A DNA stretch of 51,308 nt from positions 1 to 51,308 of the forward strand of contig CAXHAT010000028.1 of the NCBI GenBank assembly GCA_964014485.1, written 5' to 3'. The notes below the pieces were generated by a model. The model was not told the origin of the DNA. It made no database searches and saw nothing but the letters and a program-made list of their open reading frames with translations. Of this stretch, positions 6,530-47,667 are shown piece by piece (the first letter of the stretch is position 1; each line of letters opens with the position of its first letter). Both the position numbers and the translations under genes were made by a program. The stretch comes from an uncultured Deferribacteres bacterium (GTDB lineage: Bacteria > Zhuqueibacterota > Zhuqueibacteria > Zhuqueibacterales > Geothermadaptataceae).

Positions 6530-7423
6530 TTATTTCGCCAACGCGTCCTGATTATTGTGCTCAGGCAGAAGAACCATGGCGAGCCCGTAGGCGATTAAAG
6601 CAGGGATGACTTGCGTGATAAGCGCGAGGACGATGAATGCGATTCTGACGATAGTTGAATCGACATTGAAATGTTCGGCCAAGCCGCCGCAAACGCCGCC
6701 GATCTTCTTGTCGCTTACCGAACGCTCAAACCGCCAACTTGTTTTTGGCGCGGAGCCGGAGGCGGGGTCTGAAGAATCGACTGGGTTAGACTGGGATTTT
6801 TTGTGATTGAAAATCAGAAAAACGCCCAAGCCTATCAGCGCGATTGAGAATATGTAGTCAAAATTGTAGCGCAGCCAGCGAAACGGGAAGTAGAAGTGTA
6901 AATTGTCCGCGAGAATAACGGCGCCCAGGAAAATCAGAATGCCGCCGATAATAAGCCCTGCATTGCGGGAGCGTTCGCGGCTTTTTTCCTTCAGCTCAGC
7001 GGGGGGGACGTGACCAGGGTCTTGTTCCGGCATGACGATCCATGCGACGATGTAGGCAGGGAGTCCGATGGTAAAAATGGTCGCGACAAACCAACCGACC
7101 CTGACGAGAGTCACGTCTAAACCAAAATATTCGGCGACCCCGCCGCAAACGCCGGCAATTGTGCGGTTCGTTTGAGAACGCATCAATTTTTTCGGGGCGG
7201 ACGACGATCCGGTTTGCTCCTCCGATTGATCTTCGTGCGTCACCGGCTCCTCAGCGGGCGCAGCATCGTCAGCGCTAGACGCTTCTTCTTCCGCTGACGC
7301 TTGAGGCTGCTCCTTTGAAGGCGCTTCTTCGCTCGTTTCTTTTTCCTGCTTTTCTTCCTGTTGTTCGCTCGCTTCCGCCGGTTCGGACGATTGCTGTTTA
7401 TCTTTCTTTTCCGCGTCTGACAT
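6530..7423 (-). CDS. PspC domain membrane protein (two PspC domains, acidic N-terminus, LiaF-like TM segment)
   Basis: Two RSxxxxxIxGVCGGxAExF motifs; GGAGG upstream of ATG 7423. Confidence 0.85.
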   Translation of the reverse strand: MSDAEKKDKQQSSEPAEASEQQEEKQEKETSEEAPSKEQPQASAEEEASSADDAAPAEEPVTHEDQSEEQTGSSSAPKKLMRSQTNRTIAGVCGGVAEYFGLDVTLVRVGWFVATIFTIGLPAYIVAWIVMPEQDPGHVPPAELKEKSRERSRNAGLIIGGILIFLGAVILADNLHFYFPFRWLRYNFDYIFSIALIGLGVFLIFNHKKSQSNPVDSSDPASGSAPKTSWRFERSVSDKKIGGVCGGLAEHFNVDSTIVRIAFIVLALITQVIPALIAYGLAMVLLPEHNNQDALAK

Positions 7424-7516
7424 GGGGAGTCCTCCAGAAATTAAAATATAAGATGATTCGCTCAAAAATCAGCATGTGGGACTGGCTGGGGAAACGAGAG
7501 AAACGGGAGGATTGTT

Positions 7517-8173
7517 TCAACGTGATTTTTTATATTTGAGGTCAATTTGATCAATCTTTGCGACGCGTTTTGCATGCCGCCCGCCGCCAAAATCCGTGTA
7601 CAGCCAAGTCATCACAATTTTTTTCGCGAGTTCGTCCCCAATAAGCCTGCCGCCTAAGGTCAGAACATTCGCGCCGTTGTGCTCGCGACTGTTCGCCGCC
7701 GAAAAAAGATCATTGCAACAAGCGGCGCGAACTCCTGGAACTTTGTTCGCCGCCATTGCCGAGCCGACTCCAACACCGTCGACAATAATGCCGGCCTGCG
7801 TTTGCCCTTGCGCCACTTTTTCCGCGACGGCCTGTGCAATATCCGGATAATCGACCGAGTCTGCGCTATAGCACCCGACGTCTTCTACCTGAAAGCTCTT
7901 TGATTGCAAAAAGTCGATCAAGATTTGCTTCATCTCAAATCCGCCGTGGTCGCTTCCAATTGCGAGCGCGCTTTTCTTAAACTGCGGCGGAGGGAGAGGG
8001 GCGCTTTGGTGCGTTTGGTCTTCTTGAGCTGACGCCAACTCAAATTGTATTCCGTGGTGCGCCGCGGCTTCTCTGGCCAGCGGTGTGATGATCGTGTTTT
8101 GTTCAATTATGACGGTTTGCCGCCCCAGCTTTTTGGCTTTTAAAACCGCGTTTTCTGAGATTAATCTAGGCAT
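7517..8173 (-). CDS. rpiB: Ribose-5-phosphate isomerase B family protein with N-terminal extension
   Basis: GSDHGG, DYPD, AANKVPGVRAA, SREHNGANVL, FGGGRHAKRV motifs. Confidence 0.85.
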   Translation of the reverse strand: MPRLISENAVLKAKKLGRQTVIIEQNTIITPLAREAAAHHGIQFELASAQEDQTHQSAPLPPPQFKKSALAIGSDHGGFEMKQILIDFLQSKSFQVEDVGCYSADSVDYPDIAQAVAEKVAQGQTQAGIIVDGVGVGSAMAANKVPGVRAACCNDLFSAANSREHNGANVLTLGGRLIGDELAKKIVMTWLYTDFGGGRHAKRVAKIDQIDLKYKKSR

Positions 8174-8206
8174 TTTTTCAAACTGCTTTGTTGAAAATCA
8201 GGAAAT

Positions 8207-9376
8207 TCACCGACCTGAAAATTTGATGACGAGCAAAGTCATGTCGTCTGATTGCGCCGCCCCGGAAACGAATTCATGAACGCTTGCAACGGTCGCTTCG
8301 ACAATTTCCGGCGCAGTCTGATTAGTCGAACCTCCGACACAGGAAGCCAGTCTGGTTTCGCCGAATTCTTGCCTGCCGGCGTCCATGGCTTCAGTAACGC
8401 CGTCCGTGTATAAAATGAGTGCGTCGCCCGGCTGCAAAGCGAAAGATTTCTCTTCGTATTGCATCTTTCCGGTAGCGCCAATAACGAGACCGCTGGTTCG
8501 TTCGGTTTCCGTAACCGTACCGTTGACGCTCAAAATGTACCCCGGATTGTGCCCGGCGCTGGAGTATCGCACTTCGCCGGTTTGCGTATTGAGAATGCCG
8601 TAAAACATGCTGACAAACATTTCGGCCACACTTTCTTCGTAAAGACTGCGATTCACCTTCCCCAAGCACTCTCCTGGGGAGAATCCGTTCAGCGCCGTCG
8701 CCTTCAAGAATGTTCTTGAAACCGCCATGAATAGAGCGGCGGGAACGCCTTTGCCCGACACATCGCCGACGACAAACGCCAAATGATCATTATCGATGAA
8801 GAAAAAGTCGTAAAAATCCCCGCCCACTTCTTTGGCGGGCGACATGGCAGCATGAACTTCAACATCGCTTCGTTCCGGAAACGGCGGGAAAGTCCTGGGC
8901 AAAATTGAGGTCTGAATCTTTGCCGCAACATTCAACTCGTTCTTGAGAATTTCAAGACGGGCCCGATTCTCCAACGCCGCCTTGCGTTCCAAAGCCTCTT
9001 TGACGGTTTTGGACAGCGTGTTTTCAAGATCGTCGAGATCGATTGGCTTGGTGATAAAATCGAAAGCGCCGCGATTAAGCGCAGTCCGAATATTCGACAT
9101 GTCGCCGTACGCTGAAATAATCACCGTTCGGATGAGCGGGTAACGTTCATTGATTTTTCCGAGGAGCGTTAAGCCGTCCATGCGCGGCATGTTGATGTCG
9201 GTGAGCACAACGTCGACGGTTTGATCGGATTCGAGACTTTCCAATGCCTTAACGCCGTCTTCAGCGAATGAAAAAACGTAGCGGCCGTTTTCTATTTGTT
9301 CGCTGAAACTCATTGTGATCAGCAGCTCGAGATCAGGTTCGTCGTCGACAACAAGGATTTTGATTTGTTCGGGCAT
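8207..9376 (-). CDS. Response regulator receiver plus SpoIIE/PP2C phosphatase
   Basis: ILVVDDE...TDINMPRMDG receiver; VGGDFYDF, GDVSGKG, YTDGVTEA, DDMT PP2C motifs. Confidence 0.9.
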   Translation of the reverse strand: MPEQIKILVVDDEPDLELLITMSFSEQIENGRYVFSFAEDGVKALESLESDQTVDVVLTDINMPRMDGLTLLGKINERYPLIRTVIISAYGDMSNIRTALNRGAFDFITKPIDLDDLENTLSKTVKEALERKAALENRARLEILKNELNVAAKIQTSILPRTFPPFPERSDVEVHAAMSPAKEVGGDFYDFFFIDNDHLAFVVGDVSGKGVPAALFMAVSRTFLKATALNGFSPGECLGKVNRSLYEESVAEMFVSMFYGILNTQTGEVRYSSAGHNPGYILSVNGTVTETERTSGLVIGATGKMQYEEKSFALQPGDALILYTDGVTEAMDAGRQEFGETRLASCVGGSTNQTAPEIVEATVASVHEFVSGAAQSDDMTLLVIKFSGR

Positions 9377-43813: not shown

Positions 43814-45046
43814 TTACTCAGTTGCCGGGTTCATCATCCTTCCTGCAAAGACAATCGACTCCGAATGCATGTCGTGAATGATAAAAACAAAGGGGCGATC
43901 AAGCGTCATTCGCGGGATGACGGGGATGGACGTCTCGACGATTTCCACCGAAGTCGCTGCGGCCGCTTCAGTGCCTTCCTCATTGACCTCCACAAATGTT
44001 TTGTGTTTCACTTCGTCGATTTTCAACCGACTGCCTGCTGAGATGCGCGAAAAATCTGCATTGTCGCTGAAAGCTATGCCCATCCCCATCGTTTTCAAAA
44101 CATCGTTGAGTTGAATTTCATATTCCAGTTTGAATTTCGGCATGGCGAGTTCAACTTCCTGCTCTCTAAAGCTGTTGAGCATTGACTGCCACTCGGCCGC
44201 ATCGAGAGAAGTAATGAAAGCGTTAATATCCTCGCCTTCTTTGGGCAGGATGGCCATCATCCGAAATCCCGCATCGCCGTAAGGCAGGTCAATCGCCTGA
44301 AAGCCTTCCGTTTTTTGATAAAAATGCGTCTCAGTTGCATTCATCATATCGACTTCGAATTCCCCTCCGTTAGCGGCGCGGAACATCGCCTTACGGGTGT
44401 TTTTCTTGTCGAACTTGTACGTCCAATCGCCTTTGAAATAGATTGCATTGATCAAAAACATGATTGTATTTGAATCAATGCCGTCTTCTTTCACCAGGTC
44501 TTCAATTTTGCCTTTCGTCTTTTCTTTCACCCAATTGTTGATTTGTTTGGCGGAATTTGCGGCATTGCTAAAATCGATTTCTTCGACCTGAGCGTCGAAA
44601 AAATCCTTGTTTTGCTGGATGAAAAGCGATTCGACGTTGAAGTTTTGACGATACCAGATCGAGTTGGCAACGTTGAATTGAACTTTGGGGTCAAGTTTTG
44701 TAAGCAATTCGGACAGGCCTTTGTAGGACTGATTGATCTCATCGTTAGACATGCCGGTAAATCCAAGAACCGCCTCCATATCGTCCTTGGTTTGGCCGCT
44801 GGCGCCGTTAAGCGTCATGCCCAGCGCCATCGAAACGCTGAAGGGCGAGACGAAGAGATTCTCATTGGCGTCCTCAGCGGCAACGACTTGAAAGAACTCA
44901 AGACCAAAATCATTTGCCGCCCCGACGACTTGCTTTTCTAACGTCGTCAGTTCTCTGGATTCGCCTGGCCCGGTTCCGTTGCTGCAGGAAAAAAGCGCTG
45001 CGCTGAACATTGCCGTTAGCGCGACCAGGAAAATTCGTGCTTTCAT
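43814..45046 (-). CDS. Serpin family lipoprotein
   Basis: SPFSVSMAL, INAIYFKGDW, EEGTEAAAAT hinge, DRPFVFII; LFSC lipobox. Confidence 0.93.
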   Translation of the reverse strand: MKARIFLVALTAMFSAALFSCSNGTGPGESRELTTLEKQVVGAANDFGLEFFQVVAAEDANENLFVSPFSVSMALGMTLNGASGQTKDDMEAVLGFTGMSNDEINQSYKGLSELLTKLDPKVQFNVANSIWYRQNFNVESLFIQQNKDFFDAQVEEIDFSNAANSAKQINNWVKEKTKGKIEDLVKEDGIDSNTIMFLINAIYFKGDWTYKFDKKNTRKAMFRAANGGEFEVDMMNATETHFYQKTEGFQAIDLPYGDAGFRMMAILPKEGEDINAFITSLDAAEWQSMLNSFREQEVELAMPKFKLEYEIQLNDVLKTMGMGIAFSDNADFSRISAGSRLKIDEVKHKTFVEVNEEGTEAAAATSVEIVETSIPVIPRMTLDRPFVFIIHDMHSESIVFAGRMMNPATE

Positions 45047-45133: not shown

Positions 45134-46177
45134 TTATGCAGCACGGATTTGAGCGTGATCTGGCTTCCGCGAACCGATGCGCAGTTCAAACTTTTGCTTC
45201 TTTGCTAAAGAATTTGAGCGTGTACTCTCGGGCCGAGCGAGCAAATGATTTGGGCCAGATGATTTACGCAGCTCCTTACCGAGAAATTGCGCCAAAGCTT
45301 CCATGCCGGTTTTCGGTACTTTTGCACGGCTTTCAGCCAGACTGTTGTAGTTTGTGTTCGTGTTCACGTCATAAGTAAATATTTTCCCTGAAGCGTTTCT
45401 GATGAACTCAATCCCGGCCGCTTCAATCTTGTTTTGCCGAAGAAACGTTTCGTATTTTTTGATCAATTCGGGGTGTGTGCGTTCAAAATGTTTGACGATT
45501 CGAAATTTCTCTTGTTGTGCATCCAGGTTGCAGGCGTCCGCCGGGCACAACTCAAAGCCGTCGGAGGTATCGACGCGTGCGGCATATAAAAATTTTCCCC
45601 CGATAAATTCGCATCGTGTGATGAACGGCTCGGGTGAAGCGATGTATTCCTGGATCAACCAAACGCCGTCGACCGGCTCTTCATAATTCGGGCTATTGAG
45701 AAATTCCTGCGCTTGCTGAATTGAATAAAAGAGCTGAACGCCCGCACCTTTGCCGCCGCGATTGGGCTTTAAGATAAAAGGCGCGGCTGTGAAGCGTATG
45801 ATAGAAGAAAGTATGTTTTCTTTGCCGACCACCGCCGCTGTTTTTGGCGTTTTAACGCCCGCTTCCTCCAGCGCTGCATACTGTTCAATCTTGCTCAATT
45901 CCAATTGCAGCGCACGGCTGCCGTTAATAATGCGGCGACCGTGTTTTTCTAACCAATTCAAAGTCAAAAAAGTCAGGTCAGGGGCAAATCGATTCCCGCG
46001 CGTATGCGCCGAAGCGCTCATCCGATTGTAAAACACGCCTTTGGGCGGCTCTTGCTCAAAAAAGACCGCGCCGTTGTTCAGGTTCCATGCCTGCCAAGGC
46101 AACTTGTGGGCGGCGAATGCTTGTTCCAGCGGTGAAATCCATTCTGGGTTCTCGTGCAAAACATAGATTCGTTTCAT
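45134..46177 (-). CDS. RimK/glutathione-synthase-like ATP-grasp ligase, substrate unknown
   Basis: NRMSAS, KPNRGGKGAGV, IQEYI, YDVNTNTNYN; GGAG RBS. Confidence 0.82.
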   Translation of the reverse strand: MKRIYVLHENPEWISPLEQAFAAHKLPWQAWNLNNGAVFFEQEPPKGVFYNRMSASAHTRGNRFAPDLTFLTLNWLEKHGRRIINGSRALQLELSKIEQYAALEEAGVKTPKTAAVVGKENILSSIIRFTAAPFILKPNRGGKGAGVQLFYSIQQAQEFLNSPNYEEPVDGVWLIQEYIASPEPFITRCEFIGGKFLYAARVDTSDGFELCPADACNLDAQQEKFRIVKHFERTHPELIKKYETFLRQNKIEAAGIEFIRNASGKIFTYDVNTNTNYNSLAESRAKVPKTGMEALAQFLGKELRKSSGPNHLLARPESTRSNSLAKKQKFELRIGSRKPDHAQIRAA

Positions 46178-46221
46178 TGATTACTCCATCGTGTGAAAAG
46201 TGGGTGATTTATTCGAGACCG

Positions 46222-46267
46222 AAATAAAAAAGCCCGCTGTCCGAACTTGCGCCGGACAGCGGGCTTT
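46222..46267 (-). terminator. Attenuator-type terminator 2
   Basis: Perfect 15-bp stem AAAGCCCGCTGTCCG/CGGACAGCGGGCTTT plus TTTATTT, between leader 2 and the ATP-grasp start. Confidence 0.85.
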
Positions 46268-46297
46268 AAGATTGATACGCTTAATTTTAGCGTTCTA

Positions 46298-46414
46298 TCA
46301 ACTGCTATTCAGCCTCATCAGACGACAACAGGACGCACGACAACACATCATACACATGCAACACATGCAGTGAATTGTCATGATCACGTTTTTGTCCTTA
46401 GCGGCTGTTGCCAT
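46298..46414 (-). CDS. Cys/Met-rich leader peptide 2 (38 aa)
   Basis: MATAAKDKNVIMTIHCMCCMCMMCCRASCCRLMRLNSS: 8 Cys, 7 Met; terminator about 30 nt downstream. Confidence 0.75.
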   Translation of the reverse strand: MATAAKDKNVIMTIHCMCCMCMMCCRASCCRLMRLNSS

Positions 46415-46523
46415 TTTAGCTTTGAATTGGGTTCTTAATTGATTCTCTGCGGCGATCCGAAACCGCCTTAATTGAATTGAACGCTTTAACACGTTGTAGT
46501 CCTTGAAAATTTCTCTATAACGC

Positions 46524-46562
46524 AAAAACCCGCTGTCGAAATGAATCGGCAGCGGGTTTTTT
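46524..46562 (-). terminator. Attenuator-type terminator 1
   Basis: AAAAACCCGCTGCCGA-TTCATT-TCGACAGCGGGTTTTT. Confidence 0.8.
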
Positions 46563-46599
46563 GTAGACTGTAAGCTTCTAATTGATCGCTAAATTCCCG

Positions 46600-46689
46600 C
46601 TACCCAAATTGCATAAAGTGCATTTTGCCCATGGAGCAATGCATCATTGCGACGGTCATTTGTGCGGGCGTGTAGCGGTAAGAAGTCAT
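46600..46689 (-). CDS. Met-rich leader peptide 1 (29 aa, absent from the ORF track)
   Basis: MTSYRYTPAQMTVAMMHCSMGKMHFMQFG*: 7 Met, 1 Cys; terminator about 38 nt downstream. Confidence 0.7.
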   Translation of the reverse strand: MTSYRYTPAQMTVAMMHCSMGKMHFMQFG

Positions 46690-46887
46690 CGTATATTTGA
46701 ATTGCTATATTTTCGGGAAAACCTTTTTTGATGGCGGGCAATATAATCCGGAACCGAATTGCGCGCAAACAATTTCTGCAAATTCTCTATTTTTCTGTGA
46801 AAGATTTGTGATAGTCAAAGCGTTATATTTTTTGATATTCAAAATTGAAAACCAGACTCTTTCGATTCTTAACCTTCGGAACGAACA

Positions 46888-47667
46888 ATGACAATGAAAA
46901 TCGCGCTCAGCGTCGGAGCAATGCTGCTCATTGGCGCAACAGCAACAAAGTTCAATAATCAACCGCTCGAAAGTACCGAAACCAGCGGTGACAACGGCAA
47001 TAAACCGTTCGCTGTGGTGGAGCTTTTTACCTCGGAAAGTTGCTCAAGCTGCCCTCCGGCGGATAAGTTCGCCGGGGAGCTGGCGGAAAAATATAAAGAT
47101 CAAAACGTTTATGTGCTCGCTTTCCACGTTGATTACTGGAATCACCTGAATTGGAAAGATCGCTTTAGCAAGCGCGAATTTACCGAGCGCCAGCAAGACT
47201 ATGGCCGCGCGATGCGTCTGCGAACCATCTACACGCCGCAAATGATTGTCAACGGCAAGACGGAATTCGTTGGCTCGCAGCGCAGCAAGGCGACGAGCGC
47301 GATTGCCGATGCACTGCAATCGGAAAAAGGAGCGCCGCTTGAGCTTGAATTGTCAAGCAATCCTTTATCGCGCGTCTGGCAGGTGGATTATAAAACCAGG
47401 TATGGTTTGCAAAACGCCGTGGTCAATGTCGCCGTTGTTGAGAACGATCTGGTGCGAAAAATCGGTTCAGGCGAGAATCGCGGATTGACGCTGCATCTTG
47501 ATGCTGTGGTCAGAAGCTTTGCCGCTGTAAACCTTAAAAAACAAAACAGCGGGACCGTCCGATTGGAGGTTCCAGATGATTTAAAACGCGAAAACAGTCA
47601 GATCATCGCTTTCGTTCAGGATCGAAAAACGCTCGAAATTTTAGGTGCGGCAAAGCTTGGGTTGTAA
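46888..47667 (+). CDS. DUF1223 family secreted thioredoxin-like protein
   Basis: VVELFTSESCSSCPPAD, FHVDYWN, YTPQMIVNG, GENRG. Confidence 0.88.
   Translation: MTMKIALSVGAMLLIGATATKFNNQPLESTETSGDNGNKPFAVVELFTSESCSSCPPADKFAGELAEKYKDQNVYVLAFHVDYWNHLNWKDRFSKREFTERQQDYGRAMRLRTIYTPQMIVNGKTEFVGSQRSKATSAIADALQSEKGAPLELELSSNPLSRVWQVDYKTRYGLQNAVVNVAVVENDLVRKIGSGENRGLTLHLDAVVRSFAAVNLKKQNSGTVRLEVPDDLKRENSQIIAFVQDRKTLEILGAAKLGL

What the first reader, a model, noticed from the sequence alone, without database searches (positions are those of the whole stretch)
46524..46604. Antiterminator overlapping the stop codon of leader 1
Seen: GGUAGCGGG (46604-46596, spanning the UAG) can form 9 bp, one of them G-U, with CCCGCUGCC, the 5' arm of terminator 1. 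A weaker equivalent exists for leader 2: GCUGAAUAGC just before the stop vs GCUGUCCGGC (9 of 10 pairs). Inference: a ribosome reaching the stop masks the antiterminator and transcription terminates, while stalling on upstream Met/Cys codons frees it. This is the polarity expected for starvation-induced read-through.
Basis: partly seen in the sequence, partly recalled or inferred. Interest (0 to 1): 0.7.

Follow-up and report, generated by a model that had tools for sequence, protein, structure and literature searches.

The report
Methionine/cysteine leader-peptide attenuator before ligase gene
Two tiny genes packed with methionine and cysteine codons, each followed by a transcription stop signal, sit in front of a sulfur-linked ligase gene, and the first has the alternative RNA pairing of a classic starvation-sensing switch.

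Summary
The leader-1 observation holds. On the minus strand GGUAGCGGG (46604-46596, spanning the UAG) pairs 9 bp (one G-U) with CCCGCUGCC (46556-46548), the 5' arm of terminator 1. An equal or better partner arose in 8 of 2000 shuffles and at 4 of 268 terminator-like hairpins of this genome. With a ribosome mask on M11, M15, M16, C18, M20 or M23 the nascent RNA forms this helix (P 0.90-0.99). A mask on M26 or the stop abolishes it.

The "weaker equivalent" for leader 2 is at chance level (1745 of 2000 shuffles). Terminator 2 forms in every masked fold.

Context supports Met/Cys sensing. The downstream RimK-like ATP-grasp gene has homologues behind SAM riboswitches (18 of 60 loci) and behind T-boxes that I read as Cys-specific (2 of 60). 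The two ORFs are the only intergenic Met/Cys-rich small ORFs with a nearby terminator in the 8.4 Mb genome.

No homologue of the leader was found, so covariation could not be tested, and no RNA data exist.

Verdict: probably a classical ribosome-mediated attenuator with an unusual (Met) specificity. It rests on one sequence. How terminator 2 is bypassed is open; its 5' arm matches the 3' arm of terminator 1 (13 bp).

The parts
46789..46818 (-). Possible sigma-70-like promoter (TTGACT, 18 nt, AAAAAT) upstream of leader 1
   Evidence: Consensus scan only. It found 4 sites in the region against 2.8 expected, so this is weak. No promoter-like site was found between terminator 1 and leader 2, or between terminator 2 and the ATP-grasp start.
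46600..46689 (-). Leader ORF 1: 29 codons plus UAG. Internal Met at codons 11, 15, 16, 20, 23 and 26; Cys at 18. No Shine-Dalgarno motif.
   Evidence: P(at least 6 Met in 28 residues) = 9e-6 at the genome's Met frequency. It is one of 4 Met/Cys-rich small ORFs with a terminator, out of 70,275 small ORFs.
46664..46678 (-). Region 1: CCGCUAC (46678-46672) and CCCGC (46668-46664). Both can pair with region 2 (codons 4-9 of leader 1).
   Evidence: MFE folds. The pairing is not beyond chance: 414 of 3000 shuffles do as well.
46596..46604 (-). Region 2: GGUAGCGGG, the 5' strand of the antiterminator. It contains the UAG stop of leader 1.
46548..46556 (-). Region 3: CCCGCUGCC, the 5' arm of terminator 1 and the 3' strand of the antiterminator
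46524..46539 (-). Region 4: the 3' arm of terminator 1 (UCGACAGCGGG, ending at 46529) plus the U-run 46528-46524
   Evidence: hairpin -23.1 kcal/mol.
46298..46414 (-). Leader ORF 2: 38 codons plus UGA, with 8 Cys and 6 internal Met (MATAAKDKNVIMTIHCMCCMCMMCCRASCCRLMRLNSS)
   Evidence: It is the top-ranked Met/Cys-dense small ORF in the genome. P(at least 14 of 37) = 1e-13.
46271..46303 (-). Hairpin H between leader 2 and terminator 2. Its 5' arm overlaps the UGA stop. Its role is unknown.
   Evidence: MFE folds.
46221..46267 (-). Terminator 2: a stem of 16-17 pairs (46267-46229) plus a U-run, -31.1 kcal/mol. No local antiterminator was found.
45134..46177 (-). RimK-like ATP-grasp ligase gene (347 aa) with a GGAG at 46187-46184. 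This is the presumed regulated gene.
   Evidence: Pfam PF08443 and PF02655, and TIGR00768 below its cutoff. Family context.

Best explanation
Leader ORF 1 with terminator 1 is a ribosome-mediated (leader-peptide) transcription attenuator. It reports the supply of charged tRNA-Met, and marginally tRNA-Cys.

When Met is plentiful, the ribosome runs to the UAG and covers GGUAGCGGG. The 5' arm of terminator 1 stays free, the terminator hairpin forms, and transcription stops at about 46524.

When Met-tRNA is scarce, the ribosome stalls at one of codons 11-23. GGUAGCGGG is then exposed and pairs with CCCGCUGCC as it emerges, which delays terminator formation so that RNA polymerase reads on.

Without any ribosome, the nascent RNA also prefers the antiterminator. 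Poor initiation through lack of fMet-tRNA would therefore push in the same direction; this step is inferred.

Leader ORF 2 (Cys/Met-rich) with terminator 2 is most likely a second sensor in series, in front of the same ATP-grasp gene. Its switching structure was not identified.

Shown here: the sequence elements, their energies, their statistical excess, and the regulatory context of homologues. Inferred: translation of the ORFs, stalling, kinetic competition, and read-through.
For: 1. The 9-bp helix exists and is the best partner of the terminator's 5' arm (-19.9 kcal/mol). It was matched in 8 of 2000 shuffles and by 4 of 268 genomic terminator-like hairpins.

2. Transcripts truncated inside the terminator loop fold into the antiterminator.

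3. Ribosome masks give P(2:3) = 0.90-0.99 at six of seven internal Met/Cys codons, and 0.00-0.02 at M26 and at the stop.

4. The energies fit a kinetic switch: antiterminator -18.4 and terminator -23.1 kcal/mol.

5. Of 70,275 small ORFs, 70 are Met/Cys-rich and 4 of those have a terminator within 130 nt. Two of the four are these neighbours; the other two lie inside real genes.

6. Both terminators lie in the 710-nt divergent intergenic region upstream of the ATP-grasp gene. No gene on either strand needs them as a 3' end.

7. Homologues of the ATP-grasp gene lie behind a SAM-I riboswitch on the same strand in 18 of 60 loci scanned with Rfam. In 2 of 60 they lie behind a T-box. I read its specifier as UGC and its T-box bulge as UGGA; assigning these to Cys rests on recalled tRNA identity rules. 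Partner genes there are an SfnG-like sulfur-scavenging monooxygenase and a DAACS symporter.

8. The window's genome has no SAM-I riboswitch or T-box hit, so another sensor type would be needed. Swaps between riboswitch or T-box and leader peptide for orthologous genes are documented (PMC2965389, passages read).
Against: No homologue of the leader region was found, so there is no conservation or covariation. Specifically:
- the DNA search of 167 phylum genomes (G000 included) gave only short chance matches;
- the peptide search of the same genomes gave only chance frames;
- there were 0 hits in 1.84 billion protein representatives;
- there was no convincing Met/Cys-rich upstream ORF at the 124 homologous ATP-grasp loci;
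- the 3 DNA runs showed no variants.

The 1:2 pairing expected in the classical model is not beyond chance (414 of 3000).

At equilibrium the full transcript always forms terminator 1 (P = 1.00), so the switch depends on untested kinetics.

Neither leader has a Shine-Dalgarno motif. About a third of long ORFs in this genome have one, against 6% at control sites.

My crude scan found no other amino-acid leader peptide in this genome.

Terminator 2 has no detectable local antiterminator. Read-through of terminator 1 alone would therefore not express the gene.

The pairing was found post hoc by a reader who was looking for it.
Confidence: 0.55

Rival explanations
1. The two ORFs are genuine small-protein genes, or dual-function small RNAs. 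They would encode Met/Cys/His-rich peptides, for example soft-metal-binding or redox peptides, each with its own terminator. The 9-bp complementarity would be coincidental, and the ATP-grasp gene would have its own unrecognised promoter.
For: Each ORF is followed by a strong terminator, as any small gene would be. Met-, His- and Cys-rich stretches resemble metal-binding motifs; this resemblance is recalled, not tested. Terminator 2 has no antiterminator. A shared ATAGAGAAWTT motif lies about 90-100 nt upstream of both ATGs and could mark two promoters.
Against: The 38-aa peptide had no relative in 1.84 billion representatives and no usable atlas hit. No promoter-like site was found between terminator 2 and the ATP-grasp start, only 44 nt away. 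The antiterminator is beyond chance. The homologues' S-box or T-box control predicts exactly Met/Cys sensing.
Confidence: 0.15
2. The hairpins are conditional terminators, but the sensor is not the ribosome. A protein or small RNA would bind the UGU/AUG-rich repeats or the terminator arms, and the open reading frames would be incidental.
For: Leader 2 is a dense run of UGY and AUG triplets that also folds on itself. No ribosome position changes terminator 2 in silico. The leaders have no Shine-Dalgarno motif.
Against: Both runs sit in frame between an ATG and a stop. The codon enrichment matches exactly the two amino acids predicted by the regulation of homologues. The antiterminator's 5' strand sits on the stop codon, which only matters for a ribosome. 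No candidate binding factor is known.
Confidence: 0.1
3. There is no regulation. The two hairpins are constitutive or insulating terminators in a long divergent intergenic region. The codon bias and the pairing are chance features of a single sequence.
For: There is no conservation in any other genome and no RNA data (one search lists no RNA holder; this is not evidence either way). The 1:2 pairing and the leader-2 pairing are at chance level.
Against: The joint occurrence is very unlikely by chance. The top-ranked and another of the few Met/Cys-rich small ORFs in 8.4 Mb lie 185 nt apart on one strand. Each has a terminator. They precede a gene whose family is S-box or Cys-T-box controlled. 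The antiterminator has a shuffle frequency of 0.004.
Confidence: 0.15

Closest known systems
Classical leader-peptide transcription attenuators of enterobacterial amino-acid operons (trpL, hisL, pheL, thrL, leuL, ilvL)
   Same: A short ORF is enriched in codons of the sensed amino acid. An intrinsic terminator lies before the regulated gene. An antiterminator shares the terminator's 5' arm, and its own 5' strand is covered by a ribosome that reaches the stop codon. The terminator is more stable than the antiterminator, so control is kinetic. (The anatomy here comes; the model itself is textbook knowledge, recalled.)
   Different: The sensed amino acid would be methionine, with cysteine in the second unit. 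I found no description of a Met leader-peptide attenuator under the phrases searched. The 1:2 helix is weak and at chance level. Most regulatory codons lie between regions 1 and 2 rather than in region 1. There are two units in series. The regulated gene is an uncharacterised ATP-grasp ligase, not a biosynthetic operon. No Rfam leader family matches above its threshold.
Cysteine leader peptides: polycysteine leaderless sORFs of mycobacteria (bioRxiv 10.1101/834739, abstract read); Cys leader peptides upstream of cys/cbs operons in Actinobacteria (PMC1262725, passages read); the uORFC-8-2 motif upstream of cysS in Rhodobacterales (PMC8632094, passages read)
   Same: Short upstream ORFs carry runs of Cys codons and are read as sensors of charged tRNA-Cys. 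The Rhodobacterales motif also ends in an intrinsic terminator.
   Different: The mycobacterial elements act on translation by unmasking a ribosome-binding site, and the actinobacterial leaders lack terminators. Here each ORF is followed by a strong intrinsic terminator, leader 2 mixes Cys with Met codons, and no alternative structure was found for it.
SAM-I (S-box) riboswitches and T-boxes that I read as Cys-specific, controlling homologues of the same ATP-grasp gene in Bacillaceae and Clostridia
   Same: The regulated gene family is the same, the signal would be the same (methionine/SAM or cysteine supply), and the output would be the same (premature termination).
   Different: The sensors are quite different: a metabolite-binding or tRNA-binding RNA there, against ribosome stalling here. 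The window's genome gave no RF00162 or RF00230 hit.
Tandem attenuators or riboswitches in one leader (for example the two short ORFs mgtM and mgtP of the Salmonella mgtCBR leader; recalled, not read here)
   Same: Two sensing short ORFs lie in series in one 5' leader.
   Different: Those ORFs sense ATP and proline-tRNA and use stem-loop switching without two strong intrinsic terminators. Here there are two complete ORF-plus-terminator units whose stems share a sequence.

Membership tests
Leader-peptide (ribosome-mediated) transcription attenuator | Short ORF in the 5' leader, enriched in codons of the regulatory amino acid | tested here: met
   Leader 1 has 6 internal Met and 1 Cys in 28 residues (P = 9e-6 for Met). 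Leader 2 has 14 Met+Cys in 37 residues (P = 1e-13). In the genome census these are the only intergenic cases with a terminator.
Leader-peptide (ribosome-mediated) transcription attenuator | Intrinsic terminator between the ORF and the regulated gene | tested here: met
   T1 is -23.1 kcal/mol with UUUUU. T2 is -31.1 kcal/mol with UUUUUU.
Leader-peptide (ribosome-mediated) transcription attenuator | Antiterminator helix mutually exclusive with the terminator | tested here: met
   Met for unit 1: 9 bp, -19.9 kcal/mol duplex, 8 of 2000 shuffles and 4 of 268 genomic controls. It forms in truncated transcripts. NOT met for unit 2: 1745 of 2000 shuffles, and absent from all folds.
Leader-peptide (ribosome-mediated) transcription attenuator | Geometry: a ribosome at the stop masks the antiterminator, and a ribosome stalled on regulatory codons leaves it free | tested here: met
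   This is an in-silico test only. P(2:3) is 0.90-0.99 at M11, M15, M16, C18, M20 and M23, and 0.00-0.02 at M26 and at the stop, with two footprint sizes.
Leader-peptide (ribosome-mediated) transcription attenuator | Anti-antiterminator / pause helix (1:2) | tested here: inconclusive
   CCGCUAC or CCCGC can pair with region 2, but 414 of 3000 shuffles do as well. Without a ribosome, the nascent RNA prefers 2:3 (0.80).
Leader-peptide (ribosome-mediated) transcription attenuator | Regulated gene functionally tied to the sensed amino acid | tested here: met
   The tie is indirect. Homologues lie behind SAM-I riboswitches (18 of 60 loci) and behind T-boxes that I read as Cys-specific (2 of 60). 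Their partner genes are an SfnG-like monooxygenase or a DAACS symporter. The enzyme's substrate is unknown.
Leader-peptide (ribosome-mediated) transcription attenuator | Conservation or covariation of the ORF and the alternative helices in related genomes | not testable with these tools
   No homologue of the leader was found. The DNA runs showed no variants.
Leader-peptide (ribosome-mediated) transcription attenuator | ORF translated; termination responds to the amino acid | not testable with these tools
   No RNA run holds the locus.
Rfam leader families (Trp_leader, His_leader, Leu_leader, Thr_leader, PyrG_leader and others) | Match to the covariance model at the gathering score | tested here: not met
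   The best hits were PyrG_leader at 32.6 bits (cutoff 65) and Trp_leader at 18.9 bits (cutoff 41), both on terminator 2.
ATP-grasp RiPP system (graspetide/microviridin-like precursor plus ligase) | Precursor peptide gene co-occurs with the ligase across homologous loci | tested here: not met
   No convincing Met/Cys-rich small ORF lies upstream of the ligase at the 124 homologous loci. Homologues sit in S-box or T-box operons with metabolic or transport genes.
ATP-grasp RiPP system (graspetide/microviridin-like precursor plus ligase) | Core peptide with Thr/Ser/Lys and Asp/Glu side chains for ester or amide cross-links (definition recalled) | tested here: not met
   Read from the sequence: leader 1 has no Asp or Glu, and leader 2 has a single Asp and no Glu.
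Mycobacterial polycysteine translational attenuators | Leaderless sORF, and a duplex that sequesters the downstream ribosome-binding site | not tested
   The transcription start is unknown. An intrinsic terminator lies between leader 2 and the GGAG of the ligase gene, and I did not look for a structure that sequesters the RBS. The definition comes from the abstract of 10.1101/834739.

The most novel reading that the evidence does not exclude
The two units may form a relay.

Terminators 1 and 2 share their stem sequence, so the 3' arm of terminator 1 is a 13-bp perfect complement (-23.1 kcal/mol) of the 5' arm of terminator 2. When the stop-codon antiterminator captures the 5' arm of terminator 1, its orphaned 3' arm would be free. 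About 270 nt later it could capture the 5' arm of terminator 2.

One stalling event at leader 1 would then be passed on to a second, stronger terminator that has no antiterminator of its own. Leader 2, which lies inside the long-range loop, could gate or time this step with Cys-tRNA.

That would be a two-amino-acid, two-terminator attenuator with long-range strand exchange, a design not described for leader peptides.

Support:
- With 2:3 enforced, the MFE of the read-through transcript ending before the 3' arm of terminator 2 pairs 46267-46255 with 46525-46537.
- Random pairs of terminator-like hairpins of this genome reach -23.1 kcal/mol in 1 of 4000 draws.
- Only three hairpins in 8.4 Mb carry this stem core.
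- The rest of the two units is dissimilar.

Against: shared stems may simply reflect a duplicated terminator; long-range pairing has to beat a local hairpin; and no role for leader 2 follows from it.
Probability: 0.12. Interest if true: 0.75.

Novelty: new variant of a known kind. Interest (0 to 1): 0.5.

Why it matters
If it holds, leader-peptide attenuation would extend to methionine. I found no such attenuator in print under the phrases searched. It would also extend to an uncultured marine bacterium outside the phyla where such switches are textbook; one protein search points to Calditrichota/KSB1-like relatives.

It also gives a regulatory handle on a widespread ATP-grasp ligase family of unknown function, with more than 7000 database relatives. 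Three unrelated sensors, namely the SAM riboswitch, a T-box read as Cys-specific, and a Met/Cys leader peptide, would then all place this enzyme in the response to sulfur amino-acid shortage.

Earlier notes of this scan report Cys-codon leaders in front of ATP-grasp genes in other uncultured bacteria (I did not check them). A recurrent pairing of "amino-acid-sensing leader, then ATP-grasp ligase" may be worth a systematic look.

Tried and rejected
- Rfam scan of the region at E up to 10: nothing near any gathering score.
- Search for the leader in relatives. The ATP-grasp gene was not found in 60 relatives at better than E = 1e-4. The DNA search and peptide search of 167 phylum genomes, G000 included, gave only chance hits. 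These counts include the unpublished genomes G016 and G023.
- Upstream regions of homologous loci, 80 from genomes and 44 of 55 from metagenomes (11 lacked usable upstream sequence), scanned for Met/Cys-rich ORFs: none convincing.
- 38-aa peptide against 1.84 billion representatives: 0 hits.
- Sequencing runs: no RNA holder is listed. Three DNA runs of one study are identical to the window where they cover it, so there are no natural variants.
- PDB sequence search with the ligase: 0 hits.
- Scan of this genome for other amino-acid leader peptides: nothing credible. A Thr-rich candidate on C5 lies inside a gene, and a poly-Cys ORF on C135 is antisense to a reverse-transcriptase-like gene.
- Alignment of unit 1 with unit 2 to test for a tandem duplication: only short shared motifs and the terminator stems.
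- A hairpin-chain model for unit 2 (ORF-internal helix, then hairpin H, then terminator 2): by eye, only about 4 bp of complementarity between the 3' arm of H and terminator 2, so I rejected it.
- RiPP-precursor reading: rejected (see the membership test).

Full report
WHAT IS THERE. All features are on the minus strand, in the 710-nt gap between a divergently transcribed DUF1223 gene (46888-47667, +) and a RimK-like ATP-grasp gene (46177-45134, -).

Reading 5' to 3', the gap holds:
- a weak sigma-70-like site (46818-46789);
- ORF 1 (46689-46600), MTSYRYTPAQMTVAMMHCSMGKMHFMQFG, ending in UAG;
- terminator 1, with stem 46556-46529, loop UUCAUU, then UUUUU, at -23.1 kcal/mol;
- ORF 2 (46414-46298), MATAAKDKNVIMTIHCMCCMCMMCCRASCCRLMRLNSS, ending in UGA;
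- a hairpin H (46303-46271);
- terminator 2 (46267-46229 plus a U-run), at -31.1 kcal/mol;
- GGAG at 46187-46184, then the ATG of the ligase gene.

THE OBSERVATION. GGUAGCGGG is at 46604-46596 and includes the UAG. CCCGCUGCC is at 46556-46548 and is the lower 5' arm of terminator 1. Nine pairs form, one of them U-G.

I tested this against chance in two ways. First, RNAduplex of the 138 nt upstream against the 5' arm returns exactly this helix at -19.9 kcal/mol, and 8 of 2000 dinucleotide shuffles of the upstream sequence do as well. Second, I ran the same calculation on 268 strict terminator-like hairpins found in the 8.4-Mb genome. Four of them (1.5%) have an upstream partner at -19.9 kcal/mol or better. 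A random 9-mer would fall wholly inside the footprint of a stop-codon ribosome in 22 of 130 positions.

However, its -12.6 kcal/mol is reached in 1745 of 2000 shuffles.

DOES THE SWITCH WORK ON PAPER? Transcripts cut inside the terminator-1 loop (ending at 46541 or 46538) have the antiterminator in their MFE. A cut at 46545, and the full leader, instead give a helix between codons 4-9 and region 2.

For the nascent RNA I forbade pairing over a footprint placed on each Met or Cys codon. The ensemble probability of the antiterminator was as follows (two footprint sizes):
- 0.99 at M11; 0.90 at M15; 0.90-0.98 at M16;
- 0.97 at C18 and M20; 0.97-0.98 at M23;
- 0.00-0.02 at M26; 0.00 at the stop;
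- 0.80 with no ribosome at all.

With the full transcript, terminator 1 has P = 1.00 in every case. Any read-through must therefore be kinetic. From memory, this is also true of the classical trp attenuator, where the terminator is the most stable helix.

The 1:2 helix that the classical model uses is not statistically distinguishable from chance here (414 of 3000 shuffles).

For unit 2, terminator 2 forms in the MFE for every ribosome position tested, and truncated transcripts show no competitor.

ARE THE ORFS SPECIAL? Scanning all ATG-initiated ORFs of 8-70 codons for windows of 12 residues with at least 6 Met+Cys gives 23 hits. ORF 2 ranks first (10 of 12) and ORF 1 is among them. The second-ranked hit is antisense to a reverse-transcriptase-like gene.

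In a second census, 70,275 ORFs have 10-60 codons. Of these, 70 have at least 6 internal Met+Cys at 20% or more, and 4 of those have a terminator-like hairpin within 130 nt. Two of the four are ORF 1 and ORF 2. The other two lie out of frame inside real genes.

Binomial probabilities at the genome's own Met (1.8%) and Cys (0.7%) frequencies are 9e-6 for ORF 1 (Met only) and 1e-13 for ORF 2.

Neither ORF has a Shine-Dalgarno motif. In this genome an SD-like motif precedes 33% of first ATGs of long ORFs, against 6% of internal ATGs. The absence is therefore only a mild negative.

WHAT IS REGULATED? The 347-aa protein matches RimK and ATP-grasp_3 weakly, and TIGR00768 below its cutoff. It has no sequence relative in the PDB.

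It is absent from 60 relatives of the genome but belongs to a large family. The search gave 7203 hits among 8000 scored candidates, with the best non-self identity 61-62%.

I fetched 80 genomic and 55 metagenomic loci and scanned 60 of these 135 loci with Rfam at gathering thresholds. Eighteen have a SAM-I riboswitch upstream on the same strand, and two clostridial loci have a T-box upstream on the same strand. A home-made nhmmer profile found the same 14 riboswitches among the 80 genomic loci.

In the riboswitch loci, the element usually precedes an SfnG/SsuD-like FMNH2 monooxygenase followed by the ligase. In three loci (L044, L106, L107) it lies directly in front of the ligase.

In the T-box loci, a DAACS-family symporter precedes the ligase. 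From the alignment I read the specifier as UGC and the T-box bulge as UGGA, which fits tRNA-Cys. The assignment rests on my reading of the alignment and on recalled tRNA identity rules.

The window's genome gave no SAM-I or T-box hit (completeness 97%). A gene that Firmicutes switch on when SAM or Cys-tRNA is low is thus preceded here by ORFs loaded with Met and Cys codons. Exchanges between riboswitch or T-box and leader peptide at orthologous genes are a documented pattern (PMC2965389, passages read).

WHAT COULD NOT BE DONE. The attempts were:
- DNA search of 167 genomes of the phylum, G000 included (short chance matches only);
- peptide search of the same genomes (chance frames inside other genes);
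- 0 hits among 1.84 billion protein representatives;
- no convincing Met/Cys-rich upstream ORF at 124 homologous loci;
- three DNA runs of a single study, identical to the window where they cover it;
- no RNA run listed.

The phylum counts include the unpublished genomes G016 and G023. No positive claim rests on them.

MOST LIKELY MECHANISM.

One refinement follows. Without a ribosome, the nascent RNA already prefers the antiterminator. Termination therefore seems to require a ribosome parked at M26 or at the stop. Met shortage could also act through poor initiation; this is inference.

Unit 2 is probably a second sensor weighted towards Cys, but its switch is unidentified.

AN OPEN LEAD. Terminators 1 and 2 share their stem (AAARCCCGCUGYC ... 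CAGCGGGYUUU). The 3' arm of terminator 1 is therefore a 13-bp complement of the 5' arm of terminator 2 (-23.1 kcal/mol). With the unit-1 antiterminator enforced, the MFE of the read-through transcript uses exactly that long-range helix.

Random pairs among the 268 genomic hairpins reach this energy once in 4000 draws. Only one other hairpin in the genome has the same core. The rest of the two units does not align convincingly.

This could be a duplicated terminator, or it could be a relay that hands antitermination from unit 1 to unit 2. I rate the relay at 0.12.

COMPARISON WITH WHAT IS KNOWN. In mechanism this is the classical trp/his/phe-type attenuator.

Cys-codon leaders are described in Actinobacteria (PMC1262725, passages read; bioRxiv 10.1101/834739, abstract read) and upstream of cysS in Rhodobacterales (PMC8632094, passages read).

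Four full-text searches returned no bacterial Met-codon leader-peptide attenuator. That covers only the library held and the phrases used.

Earlier notes of this scan (e1-4815952, e1-993157, e1-1917566, e1-4513060) report Cys or other amino-acid leaders in front of ATP-grasp genes in other uncultured bacteria. I could not check whether those ligases belong to this family; a word-based look-up with this protein found no look-alike in the scan.

VERDICT. I class it as a new variant of a known kind and score interest at 0.5.

Noticed in passing
window 46524-46561 and 46229-46267: Terminators 1 and 2 share their stem sequence. The 3' arm of T1 pairs with the 5' arm of T2 over 13 bp (-23.1 kcal/mol). 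Random pairs of terminator-like hairpins in this genome reach that energy in 1 of 4000 draws. Only one other hairpin in the genome (on C150) has the CCCGCTG...CAGCGGG core.
   Followed up: partly
window 46696-46704 and 46421-46429 (minus strand); also 46780-46790 and 46508-46518: Both leader ATGs are preceded at 7-8 nt by CAATTCAAA. Both units carry ATAGAGAAWTT about 90-100 nt upstream of the ATG. These could be initiation or promoter elements, or remnants of a duplication.
   Followed up: no
L006, L007, L008, L009, L013, L014, L016, L019, L020, L021, L025, L037, L044, L051, L106, L107, L109, L114: In Bacillaceae and related metagenome contigs, the same ATP-grasp family lies in a SAM-riboswitch operon, usually after an SfnG/SsuD-like FMNH2 monooxygenase. 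This is an uncharacterised enzyme pair linked to sulfur scavenging.
   Followed up: partly
L034 757-996 and L061 824-1061: A T-box that I read as Cys-specific (specifier UGC, bulge UGGA) lies in front of a DAACS-family symporter plus the ATP-grasp gene in two clostridial genomes.
   Followed up: partly
G000 whole genome: Only 268 strict intrinsic-terminator-like hairpins were found in 8.4 Mb (perfect stem of at least 8 pairs, then a U-run). The genome gave no SAM-I riboswitch or T-box hit. Two strong terminators within 300 nt are therefore conspicuous.
   Followed up: partly
window 43814-45046 (-): A full-length serpin gene (Pfam E = 1e-120) with a signal-peptide-like N-terminus lies 88 nt downstream of the ATP-grasp gene on the same strand. 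Co-transcription is unknown.
   Followed up: no
window 46298-46525 (-): The reading frame of leader 2 is open for 75 codons back to a TTG inside the U-run of terminator 1. This is probably chance.
   Followed up: no
G000 contig C135, about 6615-8363 (-): A reverse-transcriptase-like gene of 582 codons has a poly-Thr stretch near its N-terminus. Its antisense strand gives the poly-Cys ORF that ranked second in the Met/Cys scan.
   Followed up: no
window 46888-47667 (+): A DUF1223 protein with a CxxC motif and a signal-like N-terminus is transcribed divergently from the leader region.
   Followed up: no
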